Positions 6,667-55,659 of a stretch of DNA of 64,000 nucleotides are shown here, in pieces (position 1 is the stretch's first letter; the number at the start of each line of letters is the position of its first letter). Source of the stretch: Alphaproteobacteria bacterium (GTDB lineage Bacteria; Pseudomonadota; Alphaproteobacteria; JABAAW01); contig CBDCGG010000002.1 of assembly GCA_965216605.1 (NCBI GenBank), forward strand, positions 1,025,878 through 1,089,877. The letters are read 5' to 3'. Made by a program: the position numbers and the translations under genes. Below the pieces are notes generated by a model. The model searched no databases, was not told where the DNA came from, and was given only the letters and a program-made list of their open reading frames with translations.

Positions 6667-7180
6667 TGTCTGCCTTTGCTTGCTTGCTCATGGGCGCGCT
6701 CTTTTGATTAGGTAGCATACGCAAGACGAGCGAGCCGTAGGCGAAGTGAGTTTTGCGCATGGGGGGTGTGGGGGGACGAAGTTCCCCCGCAAAAGACCCC
6801 GCGTCAGCGGAGCGCACGAAGTGCGTATCTACGCGCGGGAGAATTTTCTACGCACTCGCGCGACGATCTAGCGCGAGATGCGTAGCCTCTTATTCAAAAG
6901 CGCATTGCGAAGCAATGCGCAAGCTGACTCGTAACGCGGTAGAGTGTGTCTGTTCTGCGTGGGCGTGTCTGCCTTTGCTCGCCTGCGCTTTATGAGGAGC
7001 GCGCATCGCAAAGGCAGACACGGGCTTTATCTACGCGCAAAGCGCGTAGCCTCTTGTTACCAAAGCGCGTTTCGCAGAAACGCGCAAGCTGACTCGTAAC
7101 ACGGTAGGGCGATGAGTTTGTTGCCTATCTGTTGCGCTCGTGCTCATGCTTTTTAATGGCACGCTCTCGCGCAACAGATG
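6667..7180. repeat. Modular palindromic repeat cluster L1 (forward orientation, pointing toward cargo)
   Basis: Blocks shared near-identically with 10613, 35142 and 44084: GTCTGCCTTTGC..GCAAAGGCAGAC; GACGAAGTTCCCCCGCAAAAGACCCCGCGTCAGCGGAGCGC; two copies of GCGTAGCCTCTTATTCAAAAGCGC-hairpin-AAGCTGACTCGTAAC; ATCTGTTGCGC..GCGCAACAGAT. Confidence 0.92.
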
Positions 7181-7193
7181 CATTTTAATTTTT

Positions 7194-8276
7194 TTAATTA
7201 TCAATTTTAACTTCTTTTATGTCCCAATTTTTAATTTTAAGTTTTGTTTGGTCATTAGTTGTATCAAGAACCTTATTCGCTCTTGATAAAAATTTTCCTT
7301 GATAATTTTCATTATCTTTAACTAAACGATAGAACGTATCCCAGTCGACTTCTTCACGCTCTTTGGCAGGAATCAAGATTTGACCTTCAGATGATTTTTT
7401 ACGGTCAAGGCGAATTACGCCAACGCCATGAAGGTTTGCTAGTCGGCGAAGTTCTTGGGAAGTTTCTTCGTCGCCAATCTTGCCAGTGGCAAGATAGGCA
7501 AAGTTTGCCCAAAAAGAATTGGCTACCGTTTGAAAAAACGATTGCCTTATATTACTTTGATTGATCTCATTTTTTACTTCAAATGACCAAAATTTAAATC
7601 GTTTGTAACCAAGCCCTCGCATAAGGCTTACAATTTCATTTCCCGAAAAATTTTCTTGCATATCTTGCAAACCAACCACGTCTGGATAACGCCATTTATT
7701 AAACCCAGCCACTTGACCTGTGTTGCCAGAATGAGGTATATGACGGCTGTATACTTTATATCCAGACGAGTGATACATATATTCTGCTAGCACAGGGTAA
7801 AGCTCTTTTTCAAGTTTCCTTTCTTGTTCTTCTATTTCTTTTCTTTCTTGTTCTTCTCTTCTTTGCTTTTCATTTTCTTGTTTTAATTTACCTTGCTCCC
7901 TCCTATTCTGTTCTCCCTTATCTTCTGCTTTTTTAATTGTAACTTCGGCATCAGTATAATAAAGAAATTTTTTCTTTTGACTGTCGCGCAAAGAAAATAG
8001 GCGAGGTCGTACAGTTGGATCAACTTGCAAGTCAGGATGTTTTTCCTTGAATTTATCAAAGGAATTGTTTGTTGATATTTCTCTCCTAATTTGATGAATC
8101 AAACCTTCATCATCAAAGTTTGATTTGGTTTTTTTTGCTTGTGCATATTTTGGATTATGAACGACAATACGATAAGCAATTGTCATCGCGTCCAGTTCAC
8201 TAGTCGCATCTTCCTTTTGCGCATCAAGAAGAACATTGTAAAACATATCTGCTAGAAGAGTTTGTTTTTTAGCCAT
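7194..8276 (-). CDS. AT-rich COG2958/HrgA-like putative restriction-type endonuclease with N-terminal HTH-like region
   Basis: NKWRYPDVVG...WSFEVKNEINQSNIRQSFFQTVANSFWANFAYL resembles the PD-(D/E)xK COG2958 family from memory; charged coiled-coil linker; much lower GC than the flanks. Confidence 0.7.
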   Translation of the reverse strand: MAKKQTLLADMFYNVLLDAQKEDATSELDAMTIAYRIVVHNPKYAQAKKTKSNFDDEGLIHQIRREISTNNSFDKFKEKHPDLQVDPTVRPRLFSLRDSQKKKFLYYTDAEVTIKKAEDKGEQNRREQGKLKQENEKQRREEQERKEIEEQERKLEKELYPVLAEYMYHSSGYKVYSRHIPHSGNTGQVAGFNKWRYPDVVGLQDMQENFSGNEIVSLMRGLGYKRFKFWSFEVKNEINQSNIRQSFFQTVANSFWANFAYLATGKIGDEETSQELRRLANLHGVGVIRLDRKKSSEGQILIPAKEREEVDWDTFYRLVKDNENYQGKFLSRANKVLDTTNDQTKLKIKNWDIKEVKIDN

Positions 8277-8316
8277 AATCGCATCCTTTCGTTAGGGTTG
8301 TTTTCGTGAAAGAAGC

Positions 8317-8345
8317 ATGCTAGCAAAGCAAAACAGCCTCGTCAA
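8317..8345 (-). promoter_or_regulatory. Sigma70-type promoter for the 7194-8276 gene
   Basis: TTGACG-N17-TAGCAT on the minus strand, followed by an AAAGGA RBS before ATG 8276. Confidence 0.6.
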
Positions 8346-8357
8346 TCTTTTTTACCG

Positions 8358-8590
8358 TATCTGTTGCGCTACATTATTGACGCACACGGCAAGCCGTGTG
8401 CTATGGTGCTCCGCTGACGCGTGGTCTTTTGCGGGGGAACTTCGTCTGCTCTAAGCTACGCTCGCTCGCTTTGCTCGCTCCGCCACTCGCCTCTCGCCTC
8501 GCTTTTTTACGAGGCGAGCAAGACGGCTCTTGCCCCATGCGCAAAACTCTCTTCGCCCAAAAATAATCTTAAGGCTCGCTCGTCTTGCGT
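8358..8590. repeat. Repeat cluster R1 (reverse orientation)
   Basis: Reverse complements of L-type blocks: GCACACGGCAAGCCGTGTGCTATGG..CCGCTGACGCGTGGTCTTTTGCGGGGGAACTTCGTC and CCCCATGCGCAAAACTC..GGCTCGCTCGTCTTGCGT. Confidence 0.88.
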
Positions 8591-8670
8591 TTTTCCATCA
8601 ATACAAAAACGCCCGTCAATTTCTTCTAGAAACCCCTTGACTCCCTCCTCCCCCCCTGCTATCCTGCCCC

Positions 8671-9106
8671 TGCAGGCGGTCGGGCGAACGCGTGCGTCCC
8701 TTAACTCCCTTAAGAAAGACGCACGAGGAAAGTCCGGGCTCCACGAAGCATTGATGCCGGATAACCCCCGGCGAGCAAGTCCACAAAACAAGCTTAGGGA
8801 AAGCGCCACAGAAAATATACCGCCTCAATCATAAGATAGATGCCTCGCGTATCCATCTTTGAAAAAGGTAAGGGTGAAATGGTGCGGTAAAAGCGCACCG
8901 CGCGTTCGGGTAACCAACGCGGCAAGGCAAGCCCCATCAGGAGCAAGACCACTCGACGCAACCTCCCCAAAAGAGGAAATTCGGCTTCGGATGCGTCGAA
9001 GGCAGTCGCAAGAGGTGGCGAGTAATCGCTACCCTAGATGAATGTTCGCCTCGCACAAGGACATCGCGTCCCGCGAAACAGAACCCGGCTTACTAGACCG
9101 CCTGCA
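8671..9106 (+). ncRNA. rnpB: RNase P RNA (bacterial type A)
   Basis: GAGGAAAGTCCGGGCTCC near 8726, GGTGCGGTAAAAGCGCACC, 3' ACAGAACCCGGCTTA; P1 ends TGCAGGCGGTC/GACCGCCTGCA pair. Confidence 0.95.
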
Positions 9107-9174
9107 ACCTCATCTTATCCCCACCCTCATAAACTCTCCTTGCACTTCTCTTCCGCCAACTCTATAGTAGACGC

Positions 9175-10485: not shown

Positions 10486-10612
10486 ATTCTTTCAAGGTCT
10501 TGTATATTTCAATTGATGGAAATACCTCGCGCACATGGAACGCGCGGATAGTTTTTACGGATGCAGGGCATGCGCATGCGCTAATCTTTCGTTGATGCGT
10601 AGAAGTGTTGTT

Positions 10613-10897
10613 GCGGGGAGCGCGAGGGAGTAATCCCTCGCAAAAGACCCCGCGTCAGCGGAGCGCCATAGCACACGGCTTGCCGTGTGCGTCCATGATA
10701 TATTGGTGCGCTTTATCTACGCACGGGGGAATTTATCCCAACGCGCTCGCGGAACAGATATGCGCCTTCTACGCGCGTAGCGCGTAGCCTCGTATTCAAA
10801 AGCGCGAGGCTTTGCCTCGCGCAAGCTGACTCACAACATGGCACAGCGATTCTGTTTTCCTCGTCCTAGAGATAAAAAAATCGCGCGGAGCGCGTCG
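10613..10897. repeat. Repeat cluster L2 (forward)
   Basis: GCGGGGAGCGCGAGGGAGTAATCCCTCGCAAAAGACCCCGCGTCAGCGGAGCGCCATAGCACACGGCTTGCCGTGTGCGTCC matches 44138 onward; its inner end abuts the stop codon at 10898-10900. Confidence 0.92.
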
Positions 10898-11551
10898 TTA
10901 GGAAGTTTTAAAAGAATTGTAAAAACTATACCGATAGTAAATCTTACCCGTCTCATCCACTTTTTCAATGTTGTCCTCTTCTTCTCCTTTCTTATCTAAA
11001 ACCGTAGTGTTTAATTTTACCGAGCAAGACATTTCGGAAAAATATTGGCGCAAGGTGCTTTCTTCTTTGAAAAAAGAAAATTCCATTGCGTTAATACGCT
11101 TTCTAATTTTATCGTCTTTCAAACATTTTTCTATTTCGTTTCGAATTTCCCTTTCTTTTTCCGAATTTCCATAATGCGGAAGCAGGTATTCTCTTCCTTC
11201 TTCTCCCCCTTTTTCTTTTGCCAAAGATTCCTTCGCGAGTTTGAGAGCAAGAGGGCTTTGGTTTTTTTCAAATTTAAGGTGTTGCTTGAAACGACTAAGA
11301 ATATTTTTAGCTTGGTTGCCCTGATAGGAAATATTATATTTTTTTCGTAACTCATCGTTTTTGGCGCGACCGACATAAACAGCCTTCCCTGCATCCCAAA
11401 AAGAATAAATTCCGCCAGCTTTGATGATTTCGGGGTTGTTTTGTTTCGAATCCCAGTCCTCTATCTTGATGCGGTTGCGACACAATGCATCCATGTTTGT
11501 ATCTATGCTAGCTCGCGCTGTTTCGAATATATTTTTGATGAAATCGTCCAT
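10898..11551 (-). CDS. AT-rich GIY-YIG nuclease-like protein
   Basis: GGIYSFWDAGKAVYVGRAKN...ILSRFKQHL matches the GIY-x9-11-YVG plus downstream Arg/His pattern. Confidence 0.7.
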   Translation of the reverse strand: MDDFIKNIFETARASIDTNMDALCRNRIKIEDWDSKQNNPEIIKAGGIYSFWDAGKAVYVGRAKNDELRKKYNISYQGNQAKNILSRFKQHLKFEKNQSPLALKLAKESLAKEKGGEEGREYLLPHYGNSEKEREIRNEIEKCLKDDKIRKRINAMEFSFFKEESTLRQYFSEMSCSVKLNTTVLDKKGEEEDNIEKVDETGKIYYRYSFYNSFKTS

Positions 11552-11648
11552 TTTCTTGTCCCTATTTGCTGTTGAACCTTTTGCATCACATATTGTAGTG
11601 CAACTTGAAAAAAAAATATAATTTTTTTAGAGCAAGCATGAGCAGAGC

Positions 11649-11678
11649 CGCCGTACCATGTTACTAGTCAGCTTGCGA
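11649..11678. repeat. Short reverse-oriented repeat remnant R2
   Basis: CGCCGTACCATGTTACTAGTCAGCTTGCG is the reverse complement of the GCAAGCTGACTCGTAACATGGTACGGCG block. Confidence 0.75.
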
Positions 11679-24603: not shown

Positions 24604-24748
24604 TGTCCCAAAAAACGGGACTCGTATATTGACGAGTAAACGAACGCGCGCTACGCGCGTAGATTATTGCGGGGGAACTTCGTCTGCTCTAAGCTACGCT
24701 CGCTCGTCTTGCGTTTCCGTCAAAGCGCGAGTCCCGTTTTTTGGGACA
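24604..24748. mobile_element. 145-bp MITE-like element with perfect 21-bp terminal inverted repeats
   Basis: TGTCCCAAAAAACGGGACTCG (24604-24624) and its exact reverse complement (24728-24748); the interior shares GCGGGGGAACTTCGTCTGCTCTAAGCTACGCTCGCTCG with 8431 onward. Confidence 0.8.
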
Positions 24749-24754
24749 CTACCT

Positions 24755-27471: not shown

Positions 27472-27503
27472 AGAGAGAACCTAGCACATGCTATGCTTTT
27501 TCC

Positions 27504-29627
27504 ATGTCCTCGCCGCGCCCGACCATTCTCAATCCTTTCTTCGTCTCGCTCTCGACGCTCAAGGGCGTCGGACCACAACGGCTGCTCGCCCTAGAAAAGC
27601 TCTGCTCCGAAAACCGAATTCTCAACCTGCTCGCCCACGCGCCCAAAAGACATCAGCCACGATACAAAATCCACAGCATCACCGATCTCCCAACGCCACA
27701 CGACATCCCTCCCCACATCGCCATCGTGCTGCGCATCACGCAACACATTCCTCCCGCAACACCCAAATTGCCCTACCGAATCCTCTGCGCCGACAAGAAC
27801 AACAACGCCATAGAACTGCTCTGGTTCCAAGCCAAAGCCGCCGCCATGCACGCTCGCTTGCCCGAAGGAGAAAAACGCACCCTCTGCGGAAGCCTGTCCG
27901 ACTACCAAGGCAAAGCGCAACTCGTCCATCCCGAACAGATCCTCCCCGAAGCCGCCTTCTCCGCTCTCCCCGAAAACGAACCCCAATGGCGACTGACACA
28001 CGGCATCACCCGATACACGCTCAAACAACTGCTGTTGCACGCGCTCGAGCGCGTTCCAACCCTGCCCGAATGGCAGCCCGAACAAACGCTGAGAGCCAAC
28101 GCATATCCATCCTTTCGCCAAGCGCTCTTCGAACTGCACACCGCCGAGGAAGAAAAAAGCTGTCGTGCGCACGCTCGACTCGCCTACGACGAACTCTTCG
28201 CCCATCACCTCGCCTTGGCGCTCGTCAAACGACACTGGGGGCAGAACAACAAACGAGCGACAAATGCCAATCCCGCCGCCGCAGAAGAAAAACTCGAAAC
28301 CTTTCACAACAACCTCCCCTTCTCGCCGACCGCAGCACAGCGGCGCGCCGTGCTCGAAATACGCAACGACCTAGAGGCAGAAGGGCGCATGCTGCGTCTG
28401 CTGCAAGGCGATGTCGGCAGCGGCAAAACATATGTCGCAGCATGCGCGCTCTTGTGCGCAACCGCCGAGCGCGGACAAGCCGTGCTGATGGTGCCCAGCG
28501 ACATACTCGCACGACAGCATGTCGCAACGCTACAGGCGTGGTTCTCGCCGATGGGAATCGAGGTGGCGTTGCTATGCGGCTCGCTCGCAAAAAAAGAGCG
28601 CGAAGAAAACCTGCAGCGTATCGCAAGCGGTGCGGCTTCGATCGTCGTCGGCACGCACGCGCTATTTCAAAAGGGAGTTCTCTATCGAGATTTGCGTCTT
28701 GCCGTCATCGACGAGCAGCATCGATTCGGCGTCTATCAGCGTGCGGCACTGCTATCTAAGTCTTCCTCGCCCGATGTCTTGGTCATGAGCGCGACACCCA
28801 TTCCTCGCACCTTGATGCTGTCAGTGTGGGGAGGAATCGCGCTCTCCCGCTTGGACGAGAAGCCCGCAGGCAGGAAACCCATCGAGACCAGAACAATCTC
28901 CCTACGACGCATCGAGGAAGTCTTGTCCGCCGTCGAGCGATGGCGTGCGGCGGGCGACAAAATATATTGGGTTTGTCCTGCCATCACAGAGAGCGAGCCA
29001 AGTAGCGATTCAGGCGTTGCCAGAGTTGTGTCGGTCGAGGAGCGCGTTCGTATTTTGCGATCTCGGTTTGCGTCGGACAGGGTTGTGTTTTTGCACTCGA
29101 AGCTTTCTTCCGACAGACGAGCGGAGGCTCTGCAGCGTTTTGTTGCGGGCGATGCGGACATTCTTGTTGCGACGACGATGATCGAGGTTGGAATCGACAT
29201 TCCTTCTGCCAGAGCGATCGTCATTGAGAATGCCGAGCATTTCGGATTGGCGCAGTTGCATCAGTTGCGCGGACGAGTGGGTCGTGACGGTGGGGCGGCT
29301 CGTTGTTTGTTGTTGTTTGACGGGGATGCGGGGGAGGAGGCTCGATCGAGGCTGTCGATTCTACGAGAGACGCAGGACGGCTTTCGCATTGCAGAGGAAG
29401 ATTGGCGATTGCGAGGTAGCGGCGATCCTCTGGGGGTGAGGCAGAGTGGCTTGCCGCAGTTTTTGTTTGTCGATTTTGCCGAGCATTACGGGATGGCGAA
29501 ATTTGCTGCGGAGCAGGCTCGTGTTTGTGTCGAGGACGATCCGTGGTTGCGCGGGCGGGAGGTCTTGCGATTGTTGCTGGCATTGTTCGAGCAGGGTGAG
29601 AGCTTGGAGATGGTCGAGGCAGCGTAA
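27504..29627 (+). CDS. recG: ATP-dependent DNA helicase RecG
   Basis: LLQGDVGSGKT, VIDEQHRFGV, MSATPIPRT, QLHQLRGRVGR, DGFRIAEED..LRGSGD. Confidence 0.96.
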   Translation: MSSPRPTILNPFFVSLSTLKGVGPQRLLALEKLCSENRILNLLAHAPKRHQPRYKIHSITDLPTPHDIPPHIAIVLRITQHIPPATPKLPYRILCADKNNNAIELLWFQAKAAAMHARLPEGEKRTLCGSLSDYQGKAQLVHPEQILPEAAFSALPENEPQWRLTHGITRYTLKQLLLHALERVPTLPEWQPEQTLRANAYPSFRQALFELHTAEEEKSCRAHARLAYDELFAHHLALALVKRHWGQNNKRATNANPAAAEEKLETFHNNLPFSPTAAQRRAVLEIRNDLEAEGRMLRLLQGDVGSGKTYVAACALLCATAERGQAVLMVPSDILARQHVATLQAWFSPMGIEVALLCGSLAKKEREENLQRIASGAASIVVGTHALFQKGVLYRDLRLAVIDEQHRFGVYQRAALLSKSSSPDVLVMSATPIPRTLMLSVWGGIALSRLDEKPAGRKPIETRTISLRRIEEVLSAVERWRAAGDKIYWVCPAITESEPSSDSGVARVVSVEERVRILRSRFASDRVVFLHSKLSSDRRAEALQRFVAGDADILVATTMIEVGIDIPSARAIVIENAEHFGLAQLHQLRGRVGRDGGAARCLLLFDGDAGEEARSRLSILRETQDGFRIAEEDWRLRGSGDPLGVRQSGLPQFLFVDFAEHYGMAKFAAEQARVCVEDDPWLRGREVLRLLLALFEQGESLEMVEAA

Positions 29628-29724
29628 GAAGAAGCAGGAAGGGTGGCATCGTTTGTTGTCTGTGGTTGTTGTTTGTTGTAGAGTCCGTCTCATGCAGAGC
29701 TTAGCTATGGACACCGGTGGAGAT

Positions 29725-30903: not shown

Positions 30904-31583
30904 ACGATATAGACTCCCTTATTTTGTATTACGAGGAGAAGATGCAAGACTTGTTAGAGGAGGCATCGCCAGGTCAGATACGGGCAAAAAAAGGAGACTT
31001 GGTCACAATATTGGCACAAGGAGTAGTTCGCCTAGCATGGCATGAATTGAATTACAAAGAAGACGACATGACTTTTCGGTCGAGATACAAAGTTGAACTT
31101 AAGATTCAAGAAGAGTATATAAAAATGTTAGCCAAAGAAATTCAAATTGATATTAAAAAAAATTTTGAAAAATACAAATATAACCTTAAAATAGATGTTC
31201 CTGCTTTTCATAATAACGATCTGATCATTGCGATTGAATGCAAGGCTTTCGCTGAAAATGCCATGCTTAAAAGAATTCTTTTTGACGCTGAAATTGTCAG
31301 AATGAACTATCCTAATATAAAAAGTGTTTTGTTTCAATTGGAAAATCAAATGGGAGGGGATTACTCTGATATAAATAAACCGTTGCATCTTGGAAGTGGT
31401 CCCAGTCAAGCTTTGATGTCTTTCTTTCCCAAGGTAAAATTGCATGTTATCACATTGTTAGAAGGAGAAAGAAAAATTGATAAGCCTATCCATAAAAAAG
31501 AATACTATAAATCTTTGACAAAAAAATCGTTGGAGCGCGCTGTTGCCACGATGAAATTGATTATCAAGGATGCGTTGAATTAA
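30900..31583 (+). CDS. Putative type II restriction endonuclease
   Basis: ATGA-coupled to the MTase, AT-rich, IDVP...IAIECKA PD-(D/E)xK-like motif. Confidence 0.7.
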   Translation: MNDIDSLILYYEEKMQDLLEEASPGQIRAKKGDLVTILAQGVVRLAWHELNYKEDDMTFRSRYKVELKIQEEYIKMLAKEIQIDIKKNFEKYKYNLKIDVPAFHNNDLIIAIECKAFAENAMLKRILFDAEIVRMNYPNIKSVLFQLENQMGGDYSDINKPLHLGSGPSQALMSFFPKVKLHVITLLEGERKIDKPIHKKEYYKSLTKKSLERAVATMKLIIKDALN

Positions 31584-31597
31584 ATTTTAAAGGCTTA

Positions 31598-31652
31598 TAT
31601 CTGTTGCGCGAGCGCGTGCTTTTTAAAAAGCGCAAGCGAGAGCGCAACAGAC
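31598..31652. repeat. Solo 55-bp palindromic module (D-type)
   Basis: ATCTGTTGCGCGAGCGCGTGCTTTTTAAAAAGCGCAAGCGAGAGCGCAACAGAC; homologous copies at ~7127-7180 and ~37034-37084. Confidence 0.85.
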
Positions 31653-34311: not shown

Positions 34312-35079
34312 AGTTTCCATCCTTTGTGCAGGGCGGCGATTCCTGCGCCGAGGGGTTGGGTTGTGCATCGTGCGAAGCCTGCGTTTTTCATGGCGGTGTT
34401 GAGTTCTAGGGGAGTCATGAATCCTTGTATGCTTTCTGCTAGGTAGATGTAGCTATCTTCGGAGTTAGCGATATGCTTTCCTAGTTTGGGCAGGATTGTG
34501 TTGCACCATGTTTTGTAGAGGGGTTGGATTTGGGGGAGGGGTTTGGGTGCGAATTCTAGGACGAGTATTTTTCCTCCGAATTTCAGGCATCGGTACATTT
34601 CTTTTAGAGCTTTATGGATATGGGTTGTATTTCTGAGTCCCCAGGCGCAGGTTACTGAGTGGAAGTATTGGGAGGGGAGTTGTGAGTTTTCCATGTTATC
34701 TTGGAGGAAGGTTGTTTTATGGAGGAGATTTTTTTTTGTGGCTTTTTGTTTTCCTATATCGAGCATATTGGGGCTGAGGTCTGTTATTGTTGCGTGTTTT
34801 CCTCCTTGGCGGAGGAATTTTAGGGCGATATTGGCTGTACCTCCTGCGGCGTCCCAGAGGGATTCGTGGGGGAGTGGGGATAGGGATTGGATGAGGTAGT
34901 TTTGCCAGATTCTGTGGAGTCCGAGGCTCATGAGGTCGTTCATGAGGTTGTAATGGGGTGCTATATTATTGAAGAGGGATTGGATGCGGAGGGGTTTTTG
35001 GGATGGGGGTATGGATTGGGTACCGAAGGGGACGGAGTCGACATCGGAGTTGGAATCGGGCGTGGGTTTTTGGGGACAT
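34308..35079 (-). CDS. ubiE: Ubiquinone/menaquinone C-methyltransferase UbiE (apparent +1 frameshift right after the start)
   Basis: MNDLMSLGLHRIW, DAAGGTANIA, YLAESI. The frame is open upstream of 34943 (SVPFGTQ..IQSLFNNIAPHYNLMND) but has no in-frame start; ATG 35079 is one base out of frame. Confidence 0.88.
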
Positions 35080-35141
35080 GGGGGGATTGTATCATAGTTG
35101 GGTTTGTTTGTCTGGGATTGCTATGCATGGTTGGCTTTTGT

Positions 35142-35566
35142 GTGTCTGCCTTTGCTCGCCTGCGCTTTTTAAGAGGCGCGCCATCTTCATGGGACGCACA
35201 CGGCAAGCCGTGCGCTATGGCAAAGGCAGACACGGGCTTTTTGGATTAGGTAACATACGCAAGACGAGCGAGCCGTAGGCGAAGTGAGTTTTGCGCATGG
35301 GGGGTGTGGGGGGACGAAGTTCCCCCGCAAAAGACCCCGCGTCAGCGGAGCGCCATAGCGCACGGCTTGCCGTGTGCGTCCATGATATGTTGGTGCGCTT
35401 TCTACGCACTCGCGCGAAACCCGAGAAGGGTTACGCGCGTAGCGCGTAGCCTCTTATTCAAAAGCGCGTGGGGGGATAAATTTCCCTCGCAGAAACGCGC
35501 AATACTGACTCGTAACATGGTACGGTGATTCGAGTTTTCCTCGCCCTAGAGAAGAAAAGAACGCGC
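35142..35566. repeat. Repeat cluster L4 (forward)
   Basis: About 130 bp nearly identical to 6706-6816, plus the A- and C-type blocks. Confidence 0.93.
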
Positions 35567-35792
35567 AAAAAGCCTCTTGACACGGAGCAGCTTTTATGCG
35601 AAAAACACCATAGACACACAAAAAATCGCGCACAGCGCGACCCTCTTGACCGATAGGTAGCGATATGAACATTTTTTGGGCACACATCAGAGCTTTTTTT
35701 ATAGTAGACATAGCAGAAATCATATCCGACAAGGGCATGGATGGGCACTATCTTGCAAAGAAATCAGAAGAAAAATCGAAGCGTTTCGTCTT

Positions 35793-36790
35793 ATGAGTAA
35801 GAAAAAGCAGAGGAGCTATTTTTCAGATGCTTTGAATTTTATAAAAAACAATCTTGTGAAAGGCGGATTTGATAATAAAACTCGTATGAAATACTTGATG
35901 CGTTTTCTTAAAATAGCTAAACCTTCAATATTTTGCCCTAATATAGATTCTGTTCCTGATAAAGTGTGGAATTTGTATTTTCAAATAAAAAAGATGGCGG
36001 AGAAATTTATTAACGAATTGCGCGGCATTGATAAAATTAAAGAAGATGATTTTTTGAACATGTTAAGTCATAAAGAGCAAATAATTTTTATTGACGTTAT
36101 CAATGAAACTATGAATGCCTTGGATTTGTCAATATTTATGTTTCAAGATAAGTCTTTGGAATATGAAGAGCATACATATCAAACCCGTAGTGACCTTCGA
36201 AAATTAATTGCTAATAAAAACAAAATTGAAAAAATTATTGGCTCTACATTGCCAAAAGTAACAAAACAAGAAAATACTAATTTAAAGATATTTTCAAGAA
36301 CCTTTAGAAAGAAAGCGGCGCAGTACAGAAAAAATTCTCGGTTGTTTTTGCTTGGGGTGGTTATCCCTCTTGTCACTATTGTTTTCCTTGCGAAGTTTTC
36401 AAATTTTTTTGATTACAAGATAGAATTCCCTCCCCCCAAGGATGCTGACAGCACTGCTTTTTACATTTATTTTATATCAAAAATTTTGTTTTCTGGCAGG
36501 TTGTTGTTTGCAATAACAACTCTCACAGGATTTTTCTACTGCCTACGCTTTTATGCTGCCAATCAGCACAACGCTATTATTTGTGACCAGAGAGCCAACA
36601 CCCTAGAAGCCTTTGAACCATTGTACGAAAATGTAACACGAAAAGTGGTAAGGAGAGGTCTCTCGTTGTCCAGAAAGTTCTTCAATCTGCGACAGAGCAT
36701 CTGCCGACAGGGTTTACAAAACAACAAAGCGATAGCGGGGGAGGTGTTGACCTTTCTACTCTTGCCTCGCTTTTAAAGTTTAAAGATTGA
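35793..36790 (+). CDS. AT-rich uncharacterised membrane protein (2 TM, C-terminal NxHN..ICDQRANTL motif); frameshift near 36640
   Basis: The ORF track ends at 36776, but an alternative frame from ~36641 reads KSGKERSLVVQKVLQSATEHLPTGFTKQQS..KD* (stop 36790) and matches the paralog at 45500-45590. Confidence 0.7.
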
Positions 36791-36793
36791 AGG

Positions 36794-37123
36794 GCGCACT
36801 TCGTGCGATTCTTTTTGTCTCTAGGTGAGCAGAAAACAGAATCGCCGTACCATGTTACGAGTCAGCTTGCGCGTTTCTGCGAAACGCGCTTTTGAATAAG
36901 AGGCTACGCACTTCGTGCGTAGAAGGCGCTTACGCGCCCCGCTGACGCGTGGTCTTTTGCGAGGGATTACTCCCTCGCGCTCCCCGCGTGCTACGCACGC
37001 GATGTTTTGCGCCCGTCATCATACAAAGCTCGTCTGTTGCGCGAGCGCGTGCCATTAAAAAGCACAAGCGCGAACGCAACAGACAGACAAAGCCTCAAAA
37101 GCCAAGCAAGTAAAGGCAGACAC
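36794..37123. repeat. Repeat cluster R4 (reverse)
   Basis: Its reverse complement matches L2/L4/L5 blocks over ~220 bp (GTACCATGTTACGAGTCAGCTTGCGCG..TTTTGAATAAGAGGCTACGC..GCGAGGGATTACTCCCTCGC). Confidence 0.93.
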
Positions 37124-37264
37124 ACACACAAAACCCTCAAAAACTCCCGAAAATACAAACGGCATATCCTTTGCAACGCTATATTAAAACTCACATTCCC
37201 CTTGCAATCCTCCCCGTTTTGTGATTCCCTATAACCCACGACAACCCCTCCATCCCCCCTCCCA

Positions 37265-37570
37265 ATGTCTCCTCCTAATCCCTCCCCAATGCCAACACCC
37301 GAAACGCCAGTCGGAAGAAAAACCGGCATCGTATCACCCTGCATATCCATCTGCACCATCGACGAAATCACAGGACTCTGCAAAGGATGCCTCAGAACAA
37401 AAGCAGAAATAAAAACATGGCTCAAAGCAACAAGACCACAACAACTAGAAATCCTCGAAACACTCAAACTCCGTAAAAACTCCATCCGTAAAAATCAAGG
37501 CGCAAGACAAAGAAAAATCACTAAACGACAACTCCTCAAACAAAATCAAAAACTTCCATCTGATACATAA
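37265..37570 (+). CDS. DUF1289-like small Cys-rich protein
   Basis: SPCISICTID..GLCKGCLRT..EI..W. Confidence 0.8.
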   Translation: MSPPNPSPMPTPETPVGRKTGIVSPCISICTIDEITGLCKGCLRTKAEIKTWLKATRPQQLEILETLKLRKNSIRKNQGARQRKITKRQLLKQNQKLPSDT

Positions 37571-37610
37571 CTCTACAACACACCTCCCCCATTTTCCCCC
37601 TGTTTTCCCT

Positions 37611-39971
37611 ATGTCCACCTCCATACTAATCCCCATATCCGCAAACTCCCTAAACCTCATGAATTCCCCATCGAACCCCAAAAATAATTCTCAAGCGAAT
37701 TCTATCGCCATAGCACTCTGGCACTTCACGCAAAAAGAACGCCGAGCATCCCTCTTCATACCACTAGCTATCCTCTCTTCCCTAGCCCTCGTCTCCTACG
37801 CACCGCAAGACCCCTCGCTCAATACCGCAACCTTCGCCTCAGAAAATATACAAAACTGGCTAGGTAAAGCAGGAGCAATCCTCGCAGACCTCCTCATACA
37901 ATCCTTCGGAAAAGCCGCCTGGATCATATCCGCCATACTCCTAAGCCTCAGCATAAAATCTAATAAAACAACCCTCGCCCGTACAACTTGCCTCGCCCTG
38001 AGTATAACACTCGCCTCCATAACAGCCGCCCTCCTCATCCCCGAAGCAACAAACAACTATCCCGCTGGAGGAGGAGGAATCATAGGCGAAATCTTCCGAA
38101 ACGCAACATACACAAATAATCCAACCCTACAAAAAACAACCCTTCTTATAACCTCCCTCGCCTCCCTCCTCCTCTTCCTAGCCGCAACGCCTAACCTACC
38201 CAAAGCGACGCTCCGCGCTATCCAACACATCCCCAAAAGAATCCTCAATATAACAACACTCGTAAAACAAACAATACAAGCCCTCGCACAAACGCTCCGC
38301 AACGAACAACCCATCCTGTTGCGAACCCCCCTCGCAACACAATCTCCGCCACCTCAACAAGAACAACCCCCAACACAATCTCCCCAAGAAGAACCTCCCC
38401 AAGCAGCAGAACAAGAAATTCCCACATACCACCCTCTCGAACAACCCCTTGCCGAACACCCCCTTGCCGAACAAATTCCTGTCGAACAGGAACTCGTCTC
38501 ACCACCTCAAGAAGAGGACATCGCACACGCCTCCTCGTTATCCAGCTCTCGCTCCTCCTCCTTCCGCGCGCCGCCGCTCTCTCTGTTGAGCGAAGCAGGC
38601 GACAAAACCTCCAACCTCCCGACACAAGAAGAACTGGAGGACACCTCGCAGCGTCTAGAAAAAACACTCGCCGACTACGGCGTGCGCGGCAGCATCACCG
38701 ATATACAATGCGGTCCCGTCATCACGCTCTACACGCTAGAGCCCGCGCCCGGCGTTAAAGCCTCGCGCGTTGTCAGCCTCGCCGAAGATATCGCGCGCAC
38801 CATGCAACGCATCTCGGTGCGTATCGCCGTGATCCCCGGCAAGAACGGTATCGGTATCGAGTTGCCCAACAAACACCGCCAAACCGTCGTCTTGAAAGAA
38901 CTGCTGGAAGCCGCCTCGCCGACGCTCTTCCTGCCGCTCGCGTTGGGTAAATCCAGCGATGGCACGCCGCAAATCGCCGACCTCGCCGATATGCCTCACC
39001 TCCTCATCGCAGGAACAACGGGCGCAGGAAAGTCGGTAGGGCTCAACGCCATGATCCTCTCGCTGCTCTACAGACACGCGCCGCAAGATTGCCGTCTCAT
39101 ACTCATCGATCCCAAGATGCTGGAACTCGCCGCCTACCAAGATATTCCCCATCTGCTCGCCCCCGTCGTCACAGAGCCCGAAAAAGCCCTCGCCGCCCTG
39201 CGTTGGACAGTGCTAGAAATGGAACGTCGCTACCGAATGATGGCAGAACTCGGCGTACGCAATATCGAGGGCTATCGTAGAAAACTCCGCTTACAGAAAA
39301 ATTCTAACGCAGAAACAATGCCCTATATCGTCGTCATCATCGACGAGATGGCAGACCTCATGCTGACATCAGGACGCAACATCGAGGGTGTGTTGCAACG
39401 CCTCGCGCAAATGGCACGCGCCGCCGGCATCCATCTGATCGTCGCAACGCAACGCCCCTCGGTAGATGTGGTCACAGGCACGGTGAAAGCTAACTTTCCC
39501 ACGCGCCTGAGTTATCGCGTCGCCTCCAAGTTCGACAGTCGCACCATTCTCAACGAGCAGGGCGCAGAGACGCTGCTAGGCAGAGGCGACATGCTCTATA
39601 TGCCCGGCGGCAAGATCACGCGCATCCACGGCCCCTTCGTCGGCGAAGAGGAGGTCGAGGCGGTATGCAACTTCCTCAGGCAGCAGGCACCGCCCGACTA
39701 CAGAGAGGAGATATTAGAGGTCAAAACTAAGACCAATCTCGCGGCGACAGAGGGCAACGATCCGCTTTATAAGCAAGCCGTCGGAATCGTCGCCAAGCAT
39801 CAGCGTGCCTCCACGAGCTTTTTGCAGCGACAGTTGCAAATCGGCTACAACCGAGCCGCGAGAATTATCGAGCGCATGGAAGAAGAGGGTAAAATCTCGC
39901 TGGCAGATGCGACGGGCAAGCGGCGTGTGTTGCTACAAGCTGCTAGCGACGCAGATAACTTCGATGCGTGA
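37611..39971 (+). CDS. ftsK: DNA translocase FtsK
   Basis: N-terminal TM helices, PHLLIAGTTGAGKS, IDEMADLM, ATQRPSVDV, gamma domain LQRQLQIGYNRAARI. Confidence 0.96.
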   Translation: MSTSILIPISANSLNLMNSPSNPKNNSQANSIAIALWHFTQKERRASLFIPLAILSSLALVSYAPQDPSLNTATFASENIQNWLGKAGAILADLLIQSFGKAAWIISAILLSLSIKSNKTTLARTTCLALSITLASITAALLIPEATNNYPAGGGGIIGEIFRNATYTNNPTLQKTTLLITSLASLLLFLAATPNLPKATLRAIQHIPKRILNITTLVKQTIQALAQTLRNEQPILLRTPLATQSPPPQQEQPPTQSPQEEPPQAAEQEIPTYHPLEQPLAEHPLAEQIPVEQELVSPPQEEDIAHASSLSSSRSSSFRAPPLSLLSEAGDKTSNLPTQEELEDTSQRLEKTLADYGVRGSITDIQCGPVITLYTLEPAPGVKASRVVSLAEDIARTMQRISVRIAVIPGKNGIGIELPNKHRQTVVLKELLEAASPTLFLPLALGKSSDGTPQIADLADMPHLLIAGTTGAGKSVGLNAMILSLLYRHAPQDCRLILIDPKMLELAAYQDIPHLLAPVVTEPEKALAALRWTVLEMERRYRMMAELGVRNIEGYRRKLRLQKNSNAETMPYIVVIIDEMADLMLTSGRNIEGVLQRLAQMARAAGIHLIVATQRPSVDVVTGTVKANFPTRLSYRVASKFDSRTILNEQGAETLLGRGDMLYMPGGKITRIHGPFVGEEEVEAVCNFLRQQAPPDYREEILEVKTKTNLAATEGNDPLYKQAVGIVAKHQRASTSFLQRQLQIGYNRAARIIERMEEEGKISLADATGKRRVLLQAASDADNFDA

Positions 39972-40710: not shown

Positions 40711-40715
40711 GGGGG

Positions 40716-54210: not shown

Positions 54211-54279
54211 ATCGTTCTGCTCGTTCTGCGGATAGGATACCAAAGTCATAAACATGGCGACAGGAGGGTGGTGCGAAAG

Positions 54280-54350
54280 AGCGGGTGATGGGGATCGAAC
54301 CCACACGACCAGCTTGGAAGGCTGGGACTCTACCATTGAGCTACACCCGC
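54280..54350 (-). tRNA. tRNA-Gly(TCC)
   Basis: GCGGGTG/CACCCGC acceptor, CCAGC-CTTCCAA-GCTGG anticodon arm. Confidence 0.95.
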
Positions 54351-54599
54351 ATTCAGCGATAACCGCGCCGCTTTCCCCTCATCGCAAGCGACTAGAAGGG
54401 GATTCGGAGAATAATTCTACGCCATAGGGCTTTTGTTGTAAAGGCTTTTCGCGTGCGAACGACGATGCACCTTGAAATAGAAAAAACTCTCTTGCTTCAC
54501 CTTGGAGGAAAGAGAGGGGAGCCTCACAATAGGAGCGAAGTTTTTAACACGAGTGGCGAGAGAGAGTTTTCGCTCGAACGATCGTGAGGAGGTTATGAG

Positions 54600-54911
54600 A
54601 TGGGTATTATCGGAGCAGTGGTAAAGGGTGTGACGGGTTATGCCGCGGCGCGTAGCAAAGAGCGTACAACAGCATTGGGCGGAGGGTTGTGCGTGGCTGC
54701 GCTGTATTTTCGTGTGATGCATCCTAAAGCGATGGATGAGATCATGTTTTACATCGTCTTTGGCTTGGGCGCTCTTGTGGCGTTACTGAAGACGGAGTTC
54801 ATGCGTGTTATGGCGGTTGCGATTGTCGATGCGATGAAGAGCAAGAAGAGCAAGAAGAGCAATAAGAGCAAGAAGAGCAAGAAGAGCAAGCCGCGCAAGA
54901 AGCGCAAGTGA
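54600..54911 (+). CDS. Small 2-TM protein with highly basic tail (holin-like)
   Basis: Two hydrophobic segments, KSKKSKKSNKSKK tail built from 9-bp repeats, GAGGAGG RBS, directly upstream of a peptidoglycan hydrolase. Confidence 0.5.
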   Translation: MGIIGAVVKGVTGYAAARSKERTTALGGGLCVAALYFRVMHPKAMDEIMFYIVFGLGALVALLKTEFMRVMAVAIVDAMKSKKSKKSNKSKKSKKSKPRKKRK

Positions 54912-54926
54912 GGGGGGGGTGATAGA

Positions 54927-55430
54927 ATGGCGGAGTATCTAACCGAGCATTTTTCGTTGCAGGAGATGGTAAGATCCTCCTTTGCGACGCGCAAGGGTTT
55001 GGACAATACGCCGACGGCTCGCCAGCGTGCGAATCTCGTTCGAACATGCGAGGTTTTGGAAGAGGTGCGCGCTTTGCTAGGCGGTCGGTTGTTGTTTGTT
55101 TCTAGCGGGTTGCGTAAGGGGAGGGTGAATGACTATCAGGGGGGTGCTCGTCGTTCGGCGCACAAGAGGGGATTGGCAGCGGATTTGGATAATTTGCCTG
55201 AGGGCAACTACGAGTCGTTTTTGCGGATAGCACCTTATGTCTTGCGGCGGGAGTTTCCTGTCGATCAGTTGATCGGGGAGTTCTTTTTGCCAGACGAGCC
55301 TCGCGGGGGGTGGATTCACATGGGGTTAGCGGATGGGCGGAAGGAGCCGAGGTATCAGATTTTGCGTGCAGAGAAGGTTGGGGGCAGGACGCGCTATCTT
55401 GTTTGGGATGAGCCGTGGCAGATGGTGTAG
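54927..55430 (+). CDS. Peptidase M15A family (phage-endolysin-like) protein
   Basis: LTEHFSLQEM..S, SSGLR..VN..GG..SAH..GLAAD, WIHMG zinc motifs. Confidence 0.85.
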   Translation: MAEYLTEHFSLQEMVRSSFATRKGLDNTPTARQRANLVRTCEVLEEVRALLGGRLLFVSSGLRKGRVNDYQGGARRSAHKRGLAADLDNLPEGNYESFLRIAPYVLRREFPVDQLIGEFFLPDEPRGGWIHMGLADGRKEPRYQILRAEKVGGRTRYLVWDEPWQMV

Positions 55431-55463
55431 GGAGTAATAAGGGGGGAGGGGGGAGGGGATAAA

Positions 55464-55545
55464 TGGAGGGAGTAGGATTCGAACCTACGTAGGCAGAGCC
55501 AACGGGTTTACAGCCCGTCTCCTTTAACCACTCGGACATCCCTCC
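55464..55545 (-). tRNA. tRNA-Tyr(GTA)
   Basis: GGAGGGA/TCCCTCC acceptor, ACGGG-CTGTAAA-CCCGT anticodon arm, long variable arm. Confidence 0.95.
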
Positions 55546-55585
55546 GATAGCCGTATTTTACGATGTATGAGGGGCGGAGGCAAGG

Positions 55586-55659
55586 GGGGAATTTATCCCC
55601 AAGGGGAATTTATCCCCCTCGCGCCCCCGCGTGCTACGCACGCGATGTTTTGCATCCGT
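55586..55659. repeat. Partial reverse repeat copy with tandem GGGGAATTTATCCCC palindromes
   Basis: CCCCGCGTGCTACGCACGCGATGTTTTGCATCCGT matches 45841-45875; the GGGGAATTTATCCC motif is also at ~10726 and, reversed, at ~35472. Confidence 0.8.

What the first reader, a model, noticed from the sequence alone, without database searches (positions are those of the whole stretch)
6814..55645. Repeat hairpins co-vary and carry cGNAg triloops on one strand only, the same strand that is C-depleted
Seen: after the constant TATTCAAAA the stem sequence changes while pairing is kept: GCGC-ATTGC-GAA-GCAAT-GCGC (6900), GCGC-GTTTC-GCA-GAAAC-GCGC (7065), GCGC-GAGGC-TTT-GCCTC-GCGC (10802). Left copies show GCAC-GAA-GTGC (6814), GCGC-GTA-GCGC (10773) and CGTGC-GTA-GCACG (~44125). 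Right copies show the reverse complements on the top strand (GCAC-TTC-GTGC at 36796 and 36908; CGTGC-TAC-GCACG at ~36987, ~45846, ~55630). Knowledge: d(GCGNAGC)-type mini-hairpins are exceptionally stable and nuclease-resistant in single-stranded DNA, and ssDNA hairpins are substrates for HUH transposases, integron integrases and single-strand origins. Inference: the element works as folded ssDNA on the strand that the skew independently marks as exposed.
Basis: partly seen in the sequence, partly recalled or inferred. Interest (0 to 1): 0.75.

Follow-up and report, generated by a model that had tools for sequence, protein, structure and literature searches.

The report
Mini-hairpin repeat arrays, strand-skewed flanks
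An uncultured marine-type alphaproteobacterium carries hundreds of intergenic arrays of small GC-rich hairpins whose loops are the ultra-stable DNA "mini-hairpin" type on one defined strand, and the same strand of the neighbouring genes shows a steep deamination-like loss of C and A, which suggests these sites are repeatedly single-stranded.

Summary
The repeats are mosaic arrays of perfect GC-rich hairpins in intergenic DNA, sampled here over 623 kb (window plus loci, mostly from a sister genome).

- **Co-variation:** for the hairpin after TATTCAAAA, 95% of cells pair against 79% in shuffles (0/500).
- **Loop bias:** in the element's own orientation, C(GNA)G and C(GNNA)G loops number 608 copies against 9 reverse complements. 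As distinct sequences that is 71 against 6 (p = 3e-15). G and A are fixed and N is free.
- **No wobble asymmetry:** stems are almost always perfect.
- **Arrangement:** arrays sit equally on both chromosomal strands, as inward-facing pairs, either empty or enclosing AT-rich defence-type cassettes.
- **Flank skew:** the outer flank of 96% of 158 arrays is G>C and T>A on the GNA strand. Skew is +0.45 at the array and reaches 0 by about 1.5 kb. Third codon positions show +0.6 whichever way the gene points.
- **Phylogeny:** syntenic relatives without arrays lack this sawtooth.

Best reading: a REP/BIME/REPIN-like family that acts as folded single-stranded DNA at sites of recurrent breaks or gaps. 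No HUH transposase was found. An RNA terminator role on the opposite strand remains possible and could not be tested.

The parts
6668..7178 (+). Hairpin array, GNA loops on the top strand. It is the left arm of a pair around the cassette at 7194-8276.
   Evidence: Oriented k-mer track. Hairpins at 6813, 6900, 7031 and 7065. Sequence read.
7194..8276 (-). AT-rich cassette gene (GC 0.36), an HrgA/COG2958-family protein linked to restriction systems.
   Evidence: No Pfam or PADLOC hit. Homologues named HrgA occur patchily across phyla. In the sister genome the orthologous site holds only repeats, and the gene lies elsewhere (L058).
8370..8596 (-). Right arm of the same pair (short array). RNase P RNA follows at 8672-9109.
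   Evidence: Inverted repeats I4-I6 and I16. K-mer blocks. Rfam.
10549..10895 (+). Left arm with hairpins CTACGCGC-GTA-GCGCGTAG, GCGCGAGGC-TTT-GCCTCGCGC and CGCGC-GGA-GCGCG.
10898..11551 (-). AT-rich cassette gene, GIY-YIG-like nuclease by a chain of homology.
   Evidence: It is 97% identical to L045 6014-6710 while the flanks are 92% identical. A relative of the L045 protein (53% identical) hits Pfam GIY-YIG. The window protein itself has no Pfam hit.
11623..11677 (-). Short right arm (inner tail module only).
   Evidence: (D14, I24).
24604..24753 (.). Small empty pair (+ arm 24604-24648, - arm 24649-24753). The skew flips from +0.38 to -0.58 across it.
29446..31583 (+). Low-GC type II restriction-modification cassette (N6/N4 methylase plus restriction enzyme). 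A long-hairpin repeat module bounds it on the right at 31590-31650.
   Evidence: The skew switches from + to - at 31600.
35144..35552 (+). Left arm of the pair around the cassette at 35676-36776.
35676..36776 (+). AT-rich orphan cassette gene (GC 0.30-0.36, predicted membrane segments). It is only 76-79% identical to the sister genome, against 92% for the flanks.
36793..37085 (-). Right arm. On the bottom strand it carries five C(GNA/GNNA)G hairpins. On the top strand three hairpins are followed by T-tracts.
40725..40778 (+). Truncated single arm. The skew still flips on both sides (+0.32 to -0.50).
   Evidence: The sister genome has a longer array at this site.
44018..44478 (+). Left arm made of two units.
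44479..45638 (.). AT-rich spacer (GC 0.35) with no long ORF. A consensus-like TTGACA-N17-TATAAA lies at its left end.
45639..45970 (-). Right arm.
   Evidence: Inverted repeat I1 is 93% complementary.
55589..55659 (-). Short array beside tRNA-Tyr. The sister genome has about 1.1 kb of arrays at the same site.
5200..6667 (+). Example of a skewed outer flank: the 3' end of the amidase gene, top strand G>C (+0.17 rising to +0.56).
33600..35143 (+). Skewed outer flank covering the 5' part of the bottom-strand ubiE gene (34308-34943) and the 5' end of the gene next to it (32671-34368). Top strand skew is +0.27 to +0.44.
37086..39000 (-). Skewed outer flank (5' part of ftsK on the top strand). Top strand skew is -0.52 to -0.29, so the bottom strand is G-rich.
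42000..44017 (+). Skewed outer flank: genes on the bottom strand, top strand skew up to +0.59.
45971..47600 (-). Skewed outer flank: genes on the bottom strand, top strand skew -0.62 to -0.33.
   Evidence: The same gradient is present at the orthologous site in three further relatives.

Best explanation
**What it is.** These are a lineage-specific family of REP/BIME/REPIN-like mosaic extragenic palindromes that work at the DNA level.
- Each arm is a string of hairpin slots. In each slot the stem sequence can be swapped while pairing stays perfect.
- On one strand the loop is the C-GNA-G or C-GNNA-G DNA mini-hairpin.
- Arms face each other in pairs. Pairs are either empty (0-70 nt between the arms) or hold an AT-rich, horizontally moving defence-type cassette.

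**How it likely works (inferred).**
- The centre of a pair is a site of recurrent breakage or gapping, for example palindrome cleavage or a replication block.
- The strand whose 3' end points to the centre is left single-stranded from the array outward for up to about 1.5 kb.
- On that strand the arrays fold into exonuclease-resistant mini-hairpins, which may cap the 3' end or act as a Chi-like boundary.
- The exposed flank accumulates C-to-T and A-to-G changes.
- The homologous arms let cassettes be exchanged between pairs by recombination.

**Status.** Shown: the anatomy, the loop polarity, the co-variation, the paired arrangement, the cassette content, the skew gradient and its polarity, and the co-occurrence across genomes. 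Inferred: single-strandedness, breakage and the protective role.
For: - **Loop polarity:** 608 against 9 copies, 71 against 6 distinct sequences. In one slot the stem is constant while the loop is GTA 56, GCA 7, GAA 10, GGA 4, AAA 2, so G and A are fixed and N is free.
- **Loop type:** GNNA loops include GTCA and GATA. These fit the DNA motif GCGNNAGC and not RNA GNRA. TTC loops are not stable (PMC13037366).
- **Stems:** 1336 perfect against 63 with one mismatch. G.T against A.C is 25 to 14 by copies and 12 to 12 by distinct sequence.
- **Pairing of arms:** 61 convergent pairs, 34 of them with 62 nt or less between the arms, against 26 divergent pairs of which only 3 are close. Empty pairs have a defined non-palindromic centre.
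- **Cassettes:** HrgA, GIY-YIG, HNH, T5orf172, GmrSD/HEC-05, MT-A70 and a type II R-M system.
- **Cassette history differs from flank history:** 97% or 76-79% identity against 92% for the flanks, and a different cassette at an orthologous site.
- **Skew profile:** +0.43 to +0.48 in the first 300 nt, 0 by about 1.5 kb, T>A as well, n = 163.
- **Independence from gene direction:** third-position skew is +0.63 and +0.59 for the two directions, with composition G .46, C .10, A .10, T .33.
- **One-sidedness:** the inner side averages -0.07.
- **Controls:** across 50 pairs the left-minus-right skew is +0.75. At 154 array-free gene boundaries it is about 0.
- **Two-sided switch at single arms:** some one-arm sites still flip on both sides, which fits a site-centred process.
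- **Phylogeny:** arrays and gradient are both present at the orthologous site in three further genomes. Both are absent from three more distant syntenic relatives, which show only a uniform replichore skew.
Against: - Nothing here observes single-stranded DNA, breaks or folding.
- About 11 single arms have a one-sided skew only. That fits a polymerase-block or gap model better than a central break.
- Polarised substitutions at one locus (81 changes near the array) did not show a C-to-T excess. The test is weak and biased by parsimony.
- Within the arrays the linkers are A-rich, so they do not carry the flank signature.
- T-tracts follow the hairpins mainly on the opposite strand (128 against 14 with 6 or more T in 9), as in intrinsic terminators.
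- The dispersal mechanism is unknown. No transposase was found, but only about 30% of the sister genome was sampled.
Confidence: 0.5

Rival explanations
1. **RNA-level insulators.** The arms are stacks of intrinsic terminators for transcripts that leave the centre of a pair. This shields housekeeping genes from read-through out of foreign cassettes, and it terminates convergent genes at empty pairs. On this reading the hairpins matter as RNA on the strand opposite to the GNA loops.
For: - On the TNC strand 442 of 1329 hairpins have 5 or more T in the next 9 nt, and 128 have 6 or more. On the GNA strand the figures are 211 and 14.
- Three terminator-like sites lie in series in arm 36793-37085.
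- Arrays are strictly intergenic. 87 of 142 adjacent genes point toward the array.
Against: - It does not explain why G and A of the loops are fixed on the other strand, nor the GTCA and GATA loops.
- There is no G.U tolerance in the stems.
- Arrays also lie upstream of genes (55 of 142).
- It gives no reason for a skew gradient that is independent of gene direction.
- No Rfam family matches.
Confidence: 0.2
2. **Orientation-specific insertion into pre-existing single-stranded DNA.** The arrays are passive, non-autonomous mobile DNA, REPIN/MITE-like, moved by an unseen HUH/RAYT-type or other enzyme. They insert into single-stranded DNA in a fixed orientation. The skew and the exposure are caused by something else at these sites, and the arrays only report it.
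For: - GTAG-tagged palindrome (CTACGCGC-GNA-GCGCGTAG), dimers, clusters and complementary stem changes are typical of REP families (PMC3733652).
- Array content differs greatly between orthologous sites of genomes that differ by 8-10%.
- Two skew switches in the window carry no recognised array, at about 27500 and about 3100.
Against: - No Y1/HUH transposase was found by tblastn in 623 kb, although the queries were recalled from memory.
- Syntenic relatives without arrays show no sawtooth at all. The 'something else' would therefore have to be just as lineage-specific.
- Array-free gene boundaries in the same genomes show no switch.
Confidence: 0.15
3. **Neutral by-product of repair.** Repeated fold-back priming or template switching at breaks creates nested perfect palindromes. 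GNA loops dominate because they are the most stable minimal fold-backs on the 3' tail. On this view neither the stems nor the loops are selected, and 'co-variation' is templated copying or swapping of hairpin alleles.
For: - Stems are almost always perfect.
- Chimeric hairpins whose two halves come from different variants occur as singletons.
- An orthologous hairpin was swapped between two abundant alleles in the two genomes.
- Small hairpins are nested inside or beside larger ones, with short duplications.
Against: - The same modules, with non-palindromic linkers conserved to the base, recur at more than 100 sites and in at least five genomes. That requires dispersal, not local origin.
- The A of the loop is kept on a strand where A is otherwise being lost.
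Confidence: 0.1

Closest known systems
REP / BIME / REPIN-RAYT systems, including the GTAG-tagged REP super-family (PMC3733652, PMC3116915, PMC3479197)
   Same: - Short GC-rich extragenic palindromes in hundreds of copies.
- Complementary stem changes.
- Head-to-head dimers with 20-100 bp spacers.
- Mosaic clusters, with DNA sometimes inserted between the dimer partners.
- A GTAG tetranucleotide at one end of one hairpin.
- Rapid turnover between strains.
   Different: - Arms are strings of up to about 8 different hairpin slots joined by conserved linkers.
- Loops are GNA/GNNA rather than the TY or CMA types reported for REPs.
- GTAG is paired with CTAC inside the stem.
- No RAYT was found in the sample.
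- Pairs often hold defence cassettes.
- Flanks carry a strong strand-specific compositional gradient. I did not find this described for REPs in two literature searches.
DNA mini-hairpins d(GCGNAGC)/d(GCGNNAGC) at single-strand origins (phage G4, ssiA) (PMC13037366)
   Same: The loop and closing pair have identical form. The effect is strand-specific, because the complementary TNC loop is not stable. The hairpins resist exonucleases and are reported not to bind SSB.
   Different: Known natural examples are single hairpins in phage or plasmid single-strand origins and in promoters. Here there are hundreds of chromosomal copies in arrays, and no link to priming has been shown.
Integron attC sites and gene cassettes
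   Same: Recombination-type sites defined by structure more than by sequence. They are active as one folded DNA strand and sit next to short, AT-rich accessory genes that are often promoterless.
   Different: There are no tandem cassette arrays, no intI gene was seen, and there are no R/L boxes or extrahelical bases. Here the repeats are inverted around single cassettes scattered along the chromosome.
Palindrome-induced breaks in E. coli (SbcCD cleavage, RecBCD resection to Chi, RecA loading distal to Chi) (PMC6061781, PMC8386832; mechanism from my own knowledge)
   Same: Long inverted repeats with short spacers. The predicted single strand is the one whose 3' end points to the palindrome, it starts at a boundary, and it decays over kilobases on both sides.
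   Different: The E. coli system is an engineered palindrome, and no evolutionary compositional footprint is reported. Whether this lineage has SbcCD or AddAB was not tested.
Heavy-strand deamination gradient of vertebrate mitochondrial DNA (e.g. PMC4182315; my own knowledge)
   Same: Loss of C and A with gain of T and G on one strand. The effect is strongest at silent sites and is graded by the time spent single-stranded.
   Different: In mitochondria it is one gradient per genome, set by strand-displacement replication. Here there are hundreds of local, mirror-symmetric gradients of about 1.5 kb in a bacterial chromosome.

Membership tests
REP / REPIN-RAYT | High-copy, short (20-40 bp), GC-rich imperfect palindromes confined to extragenic DNA | tested here: met
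   106 core copies and 241 array blocks in 623 kb, all between genes.
REP / REPIN-RAYT | Conserved GTAG (or CGTC) tetranucleotide at one end of the palindrome | tested here: inconclusive
   One slot reads CTACGCGC-GNA-GCGCGTAG followed by CCTCTT. Here GTAG is base-paired inside the stem, and the other slots lack it.
REP / REPIN-RAYT | Inverted dimers (REPINs) with a short spacer | tested here: met
   61 convergent pairs, 34 with 62 nt or less between the arms, and a defined centre.
REP / REPIN-RAYT | A cognate single-copy RAYT (Y1/HUH) gene flanked by the repeats | tested here: inconclusive
   No tblastn hit below E = 0.2 in the window plus 71 loci. The queries were written from memory, and only about 30% of the sister genome and 4% of this genome were searched.
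BIME (mosaic elements) | Clusters that combine palindromic units with other conserved short motifs in a regular order | tested here: met
   Ordered slots joined by conserved linkers (TATTCAAAA, AAGCTGACTCG, GCAAAAGAC and others).
DNA mini-hairpin motif | C-G closing pair with a GNA or GNNA loop on a G-C stem | tested here: met
   608 copies and 71 distinct sequences. G and A are fixed and N is free. The motif definition comes from PMC13037366.
DNA mini-hairpin motif | Extraordinary thermal and nuclease stability of that strand only | not testable with these tools
   Nearest-neighbour folding gives -106 against -103 kcal/mol for the two strands. These parameters do not include the special loop stability.
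Integron attC | Imperfect palindrome with R''/L''-L'/R' boxes and extrahelical bases, in tandem cassettes next to intI | tested here: not met
   Stems are perfect. The repeats are inverted around single cassettes scattered in the chromosome. No integrase appears among the annotated cassette or flanking genes.
IS200/IS605-type single-strand transposon ends | Subterminal hairpins flanking a tnpA (Y1) gene, with orientation tied to the lagging-strand template | tested here: not met
   No tnpA was found, and the cassettes are unrelated genes. Both orientations occur within a few kb, so orientation is not tied to one replichore strand.
Rho-independent terminators | GC-rich hairpin followed directly by a U-tract on the transcribed strand | tested here: inconclusive
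   Met on the strand opposite to the GNA loops for a subset of slots. No RNA data exist to show that termination happens there.

The most novel reading that the evidence does not exclude
Hundreds of chromosomal sites in this lineage are made single-stranded again and again, either by a programme or unavoidably, around paired mini-hairpin arrays. The arrays may act as break or gap sites, strand-end caps and homology arms for swapping defence cassettes. The resulting mitochondria-like deamination gradients are strong enough to reshape the codon and amino-acid content of neighbouring housekeeping genes. To my knowledge no such local, repeat-centred mutational landscape has been described in bacteria.
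Probability: 0.4. Interest if true: 0.9.

Novelty: new variant of a known kind. Interest (0 to 1): 0.8.

Why it matters
- It would be natural, genome-scale evidence that the DNA mini-hairpin, so far a biophysical curiosity known from a few phage and plasmid origins, is used or tolerated hundreds of times in a chromosome, on a defined strand.
- It would link REP-like repeats to a measurable mutational footprint. The function and spread of REPs have been argued over for about forty years, and this makes the question testable, because the skew gives a read-out of which strand is exposed, where, and how far.
- It would show that small repeats can drive protein evolution of their neighbours and mark landing pads for defence genes.
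- Practical point: the A- and C-poor strands have few stop codons, so ORF callers over-extend or invent genes next to the arrays.

Tried and rejected
- **RNA evidence.** Two run searches gave only runs of unknown type kept as contigs. Depth over the repeats simply reflects copy number. A third search restricted to RNA libraries found none.
- **Rfam.** Only RNase P and tRNAs matched; nothing matched in the arrays.
- **HUH/RAYT and IS608 TnpA.** tblastn gave no hit. This is weak because the queries came from memory and coverage was partial.
- **JGI metagenome scans.** Both a flanking protein and the core motif returned nothing.
- **Polarised substitution spectrum.** A five-genome alignment next to one array gave 81 changes near and 164 far. 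There was no C-to-T excess, and A-to-G against T-to-C was 9 to 5. I judged this inconclusive: the outgroups are 20% diverged, and parsimony inflates common-to-rare changes.
- **Wobble asymmetry as an RNA test.** None was found.
- **Folding energies of the two strands.** They are the same, as expected for palindromes.
- **Transcription as the cause of the skew.** Rejected, because the polarity follows the array and not the gene.
- **Replication direction as the cause.** Rejected, because both sides of each site are skewed in mirror image and both orientations alternate within kilobases.
- **Rolling-circle or nick-and-displace models.** Rejected, because they expose the strand with its 5' end at the site, which is the opposite of what is seen (reasoning from polarity).
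- **C-terminal extension by stop-codon loss in the cytidylyltransferase.** Not supported. The extra 64 residues are N-terminal and probably an over-called start.

Full report
**Where the window comes from**

The window is part of the chromosome of an uncultured alphaproteobacterium. Its citrate synthase is about 70% identical to those of Rhodospirillales-type genera. A scan of one genome per species with the repeat core found 70 stretches in a single 1.9 Mb MAG chromosome (OZ244186.1) and one small contig of a second MAG. That chromosome is syntenic with the window at 88-93% identity, so it is a sister species and not the same genome. All statistics below use the window plus these 71 loci, 623 kb in total.

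**Observation check**

TATTCAAAA occurs 7 times against 0.68 expected.
- The repeats are not single hairpins. They are ordered arrays of hairpin 'slots' joined by conserved, non-palindromic linkers.
- In the slot after TATTCAAAA, 208 copies fall into 28 distinct sequences with at least eight different inner stems. On 25 of them, 95.1% of cells pair against 78.8% in shuffles, and 38 cells are changed on both sides against 14.9. Both values were reached by 0 of 500 shuffles, and slid controls collapse to 15-58%.
- Other slots behave the same way.
- Much of this variation is swapping between a limited set of hairpin alleles. One orthologous hairpin is CGCGTGC-GTA-GCACGCG in the window and GCGCACGC-GAA-GCGTGCGC in the sister genome, and both alleles are abundant. 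Rare chimeras of two alleles also exist.

**Loops**

- I oriented every array with k-mers that co-occur with the asymmetric core.
- Perfect-stem hairpins inside arrays carry C(GNA)G 462 times (GTA 180, GAA 141, GCA 128, GGA 13) and C(GNNA)G 146 times (GTCA, GTAA, GATA, GCAA). A(GTAA)T adds 67 more.
- The reverse complements occur 9 times.
- As distinct sequences the counts are 71 against 6 (p = 3e-15). Outside the arrays they are 18 against 15 of 1195.
- With one constant stem (CTACGCGC/GCGCGTAG) the loop is GTA 56, GCA 7, GAA 6, GGA 4 and AAA 2. So G and A are held while N is free, as expected for a sheared G.A pair.
- The published motif for extraordinarily stable, exonuclease-resistant DNA mini-hairpins is GCGNAGC or GCGNNAGC with any N. 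TTC or TTTT loops do not give this stability (PMC13037366).
- GTCA and GATA fit this DNA motif but not the RNA GNRA rule.
- Other loops do occur (TTT 86, CTTG 78 and CAAG 32, ATTTA and TAAAT), so the rule is strong but not absolute.

**DNA or RNA**

- Stems are perfect in 1336 cases and carry one mismatch in 63. G.T against A.C is 25 to 14 by copy and 12 to 12 by distinct sequence. There is no sign of the G.U tolerance typical of RNA helices.
- Standard folding energies cannot separate the strands: -106 against -103 kcal/mol, z about -6.6 for both.
- Against a pure DNA reading, T-rich tails follow the hairpins mainly on the strand opposite to the GNA loops. With 6 or more T in 9 nt the counts are 128 against 14. 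A simple scan calls three terminator-like sites in series in arm 36793-37085.
- No RNA data could be found. The terminator reading therefore stays open as a second, possibly coexisting, role.

**Arrangement**

- Arrays lie 93 to 88 on the two chromosomal strands. 'One strand only' is therefore true only locally.
- They are organised as inward-facing pairs. There are 61 convergent neighbours, 34 of them within 62 nt. There are 26 divergent neighbours, and all but 3 are separated by ordinary genes of normal GC.
- Empty pairs have a defined, non-palindromic centre of about 26-70 nt between the inverted AAGCTGACTCG and CGAGTCAGCTT.
- About two dozen pairs enclose 0.25-2.7 kb, mostly with GC of 0.29-0.44.
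- In the window the enclosed genes are an HrgA/COG2958 protein, a GIY-YIG-like protein, an orphan membrane protein, a spacer with no ORF, and a type II restriction-modification pair bounded by a repeat remnant.
- In the loci they include GmrSD/HEC-05, HNH, T5orf172, MT-A70, DUF559, Sel1 and RTX proteins.
- Cassette history differs from flank history. One cassette with its arms is 97% identical between the two genomes where the flanks are 92%. Another is 76-79%. A third site has the cassette in one genome and only repeats in the other, with the gene elsewhere.
- Array content at orthologous sites differs by up to 1.1 kb.

**The skew**

- The arrays themselves are barely skewed (+0.05). Their outer flanks are strongly skewed.
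- On the strand that carries the GNA loops, GC skew is +0.43 to +0.48 in the first 300 nt, +0.2 at 700-800 nt and 0 by about 1.5 kb. AT skew runs in parallel at -0.2. The profile rests on 163 flanks.
- Of 158 arrays, 95.6% have a positive outer flank, with a mean of +0.40. The inner side averages -0.07.
- The polarity follows the array and not the gene. Third-codon-position skew is +0.63 when the gene runs toward the array and +0.59 when it runs away. Third-position composition is G .46, C .10, A .10, T .33 on the GNA strand.
- Across 50 pairs the left-minus-right skew is +0.75, and 84% exceed 0.5. At 154 gene boundaries more than 1.5 kb from any array it is about 0, and 2.6% exceed 0.5.
- The window shows the resulting sawtooth directly.
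- Loss of C and A with gain of T and G, strongest at silent sites and graded with distance, is the established signature of cytosine and adenine deamination in DNA that spends time single-stranded. This is known from bacterial replichores and from the mitochondrial heavy strand (background knowledge; PMC2031905 and PMC4182315 appeared).

**Phylogenetic test**

- At the orthologous site next to the cytidylyltransferase gene, three further relatives (76-81% protein identity) have the same array, the same orientation, an AT-rich insert where the contig reaches that far (two of the three), and the same gradient up to +0.65.
- Three more distant relatives have no arrays. They are 81, 76 and 70% identical in citrate synthase. 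The first two keep SecA or the amidase next to gltA. In about 20 kb each has only two such hairpins and no sawtooth, just a uniform replichore-type skew or none.
- Arrays and gradient therefore appear together.

**Mechanism**

- The exposed strand on each side is the one whose 3' end points to the centre of the pair.
- That polarity excludes transcription, because it is independent of gene direction. It excludes replication direction, because the mirror image appears on both sides and orientations alternate. It excludes nick-and-displace or rolling-circle models, because they expose the opposite strand.
- The polarity is what 5'-to-3' resection from a break at the centre would leave. It is also what a post-Chi 3' tail starting at the array would look like.
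- It also fits gaps left on the 5' side of a template hairpin block.
- Some single arms still show a two-sided switch. That favours a site-centred break. About 11 single arms are one-sided, which favours the block model. I cannot separate the two models with these tools.
- In either case the GNA hairpins sit on the exposed strand, where their known exonuclease resistance would matter.
- The convergent, homologous arms would also allow cassettes to be copied between pairs by ordinary recombination. That fits the cassette histories.
- All of this section is inference.

**Comparison with known systems**

- The family is closest to REP/BIME/REPIN elements. It shares with them extragenic GC-rich palindromes, complementary stem changes, head-to-head dimers, clusters, DNA inserted between dimer partners and a GTAG tag (PMC3733652).
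- It differs in the multi-slot arms, the GNA/GNNA loops, the paired GTAG, the defence cassettes and the skewed flanks.
- No RAYT was found, but that test is inconclusive.
- It is not an integron and not an IS200/IS605 element.
- I file it as a new variant of a known kind. The repeat-centred deamination gradient is the part that may be new.
- Two literature searches for such a link returned nothing relevant. That is weak evidence of absence.

Noticed in passing
window 29446-31583 and 62131-63997: Two low-GC defence islets. The first is a type II methylase plus restriction enzyme, bounded on the right by a repeat remnant at 31590-31650. The second, at the window's end, is a C5-cytosine methylase plus a PD-Lambda-5-like protein.
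   Followed up: partly
window 10706-11677 versus L045 5824-6739: The GIY-YIG-like cassette with both arms is about 97% identical between the two genomes, while the flanking housekeeping genes are about 92% identical. This suggests recent exchange or homogenisation of the whole arm-cassette-arm unit.
   Followed up: partly
outer 600-nt flanks of all arrays (96 kb); e.g. window 43850-44080 and 6380-6640: G-quadruplex-type motifs (four runs of 3 or more G) occur 64 times on the GNA strand and 0 times on the opposite strand of the flanks. This may be a by-product of the skew, but it could itself stall polymerases.
   Followed up: partly
e.g. window 55580-55615; L032 near 7950; L053 near 1325: A 15-17 nt hairpin, GGGGAATTTATCCCC (variant GGGGAGTTCATCCCC), appears at different places inside or beside other modules. 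It is often repeated in tandem and flanked by a repeated AAG, as if it inserts or duplicates on its own.
   Followed up: no
window 27471-27504 and about 3100-3200: Two + to - skew switches have no recognisable array. One lies between divergent genes at 27.5 kb. The other is one-sided and lies after tRNA-Arg. They may be sites that lost their array, or they may point to another cause.
   Followed up: partly
window 44033-44509, 45471-45929, 36991-37485; 45986-46888: The stop-poor, skewed or repeat DNA produces long spurious ORFs across the arrays. It also probably over-extends a start: the first 64 residues of the cytidylyltransferase ORF do not align with homologues.
   Followed up: partly
window 44479-45638: An AT-rich insert between two arms has no ORF longer than 88 aa. 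It carries a near-consensus TTGACA-N17-TATAAA at its left edge. It may be a decayed cassette or a non-coding transcript.
   Followed up: no
window 54827-54916 and 59635-59752: Two tandem repeats unrelated to the hairpin arrays. One has a 9-nt period, (GAAGAGCAA)n, upstream of the M15 peptidase gene. The other has a 15-nt period inside an ORF.
   Followed up: no
window 8672-9109: The RNase P RNA gene lies directly beside a minus-oriented arm. Its region shows a weaker skew than protein-coding flanks, as expected for a constrained RNA.
   Followed up: no
runs X1, X2, X10, X11 laid on window 34000-38000: Contig word depth over the arrays is 300 to 100,000 times that of unique DNA. In X11 unique depth is near zero. 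This suggests that a related, more abundant species with the same repeats dominates that sample.
   Followed up: no
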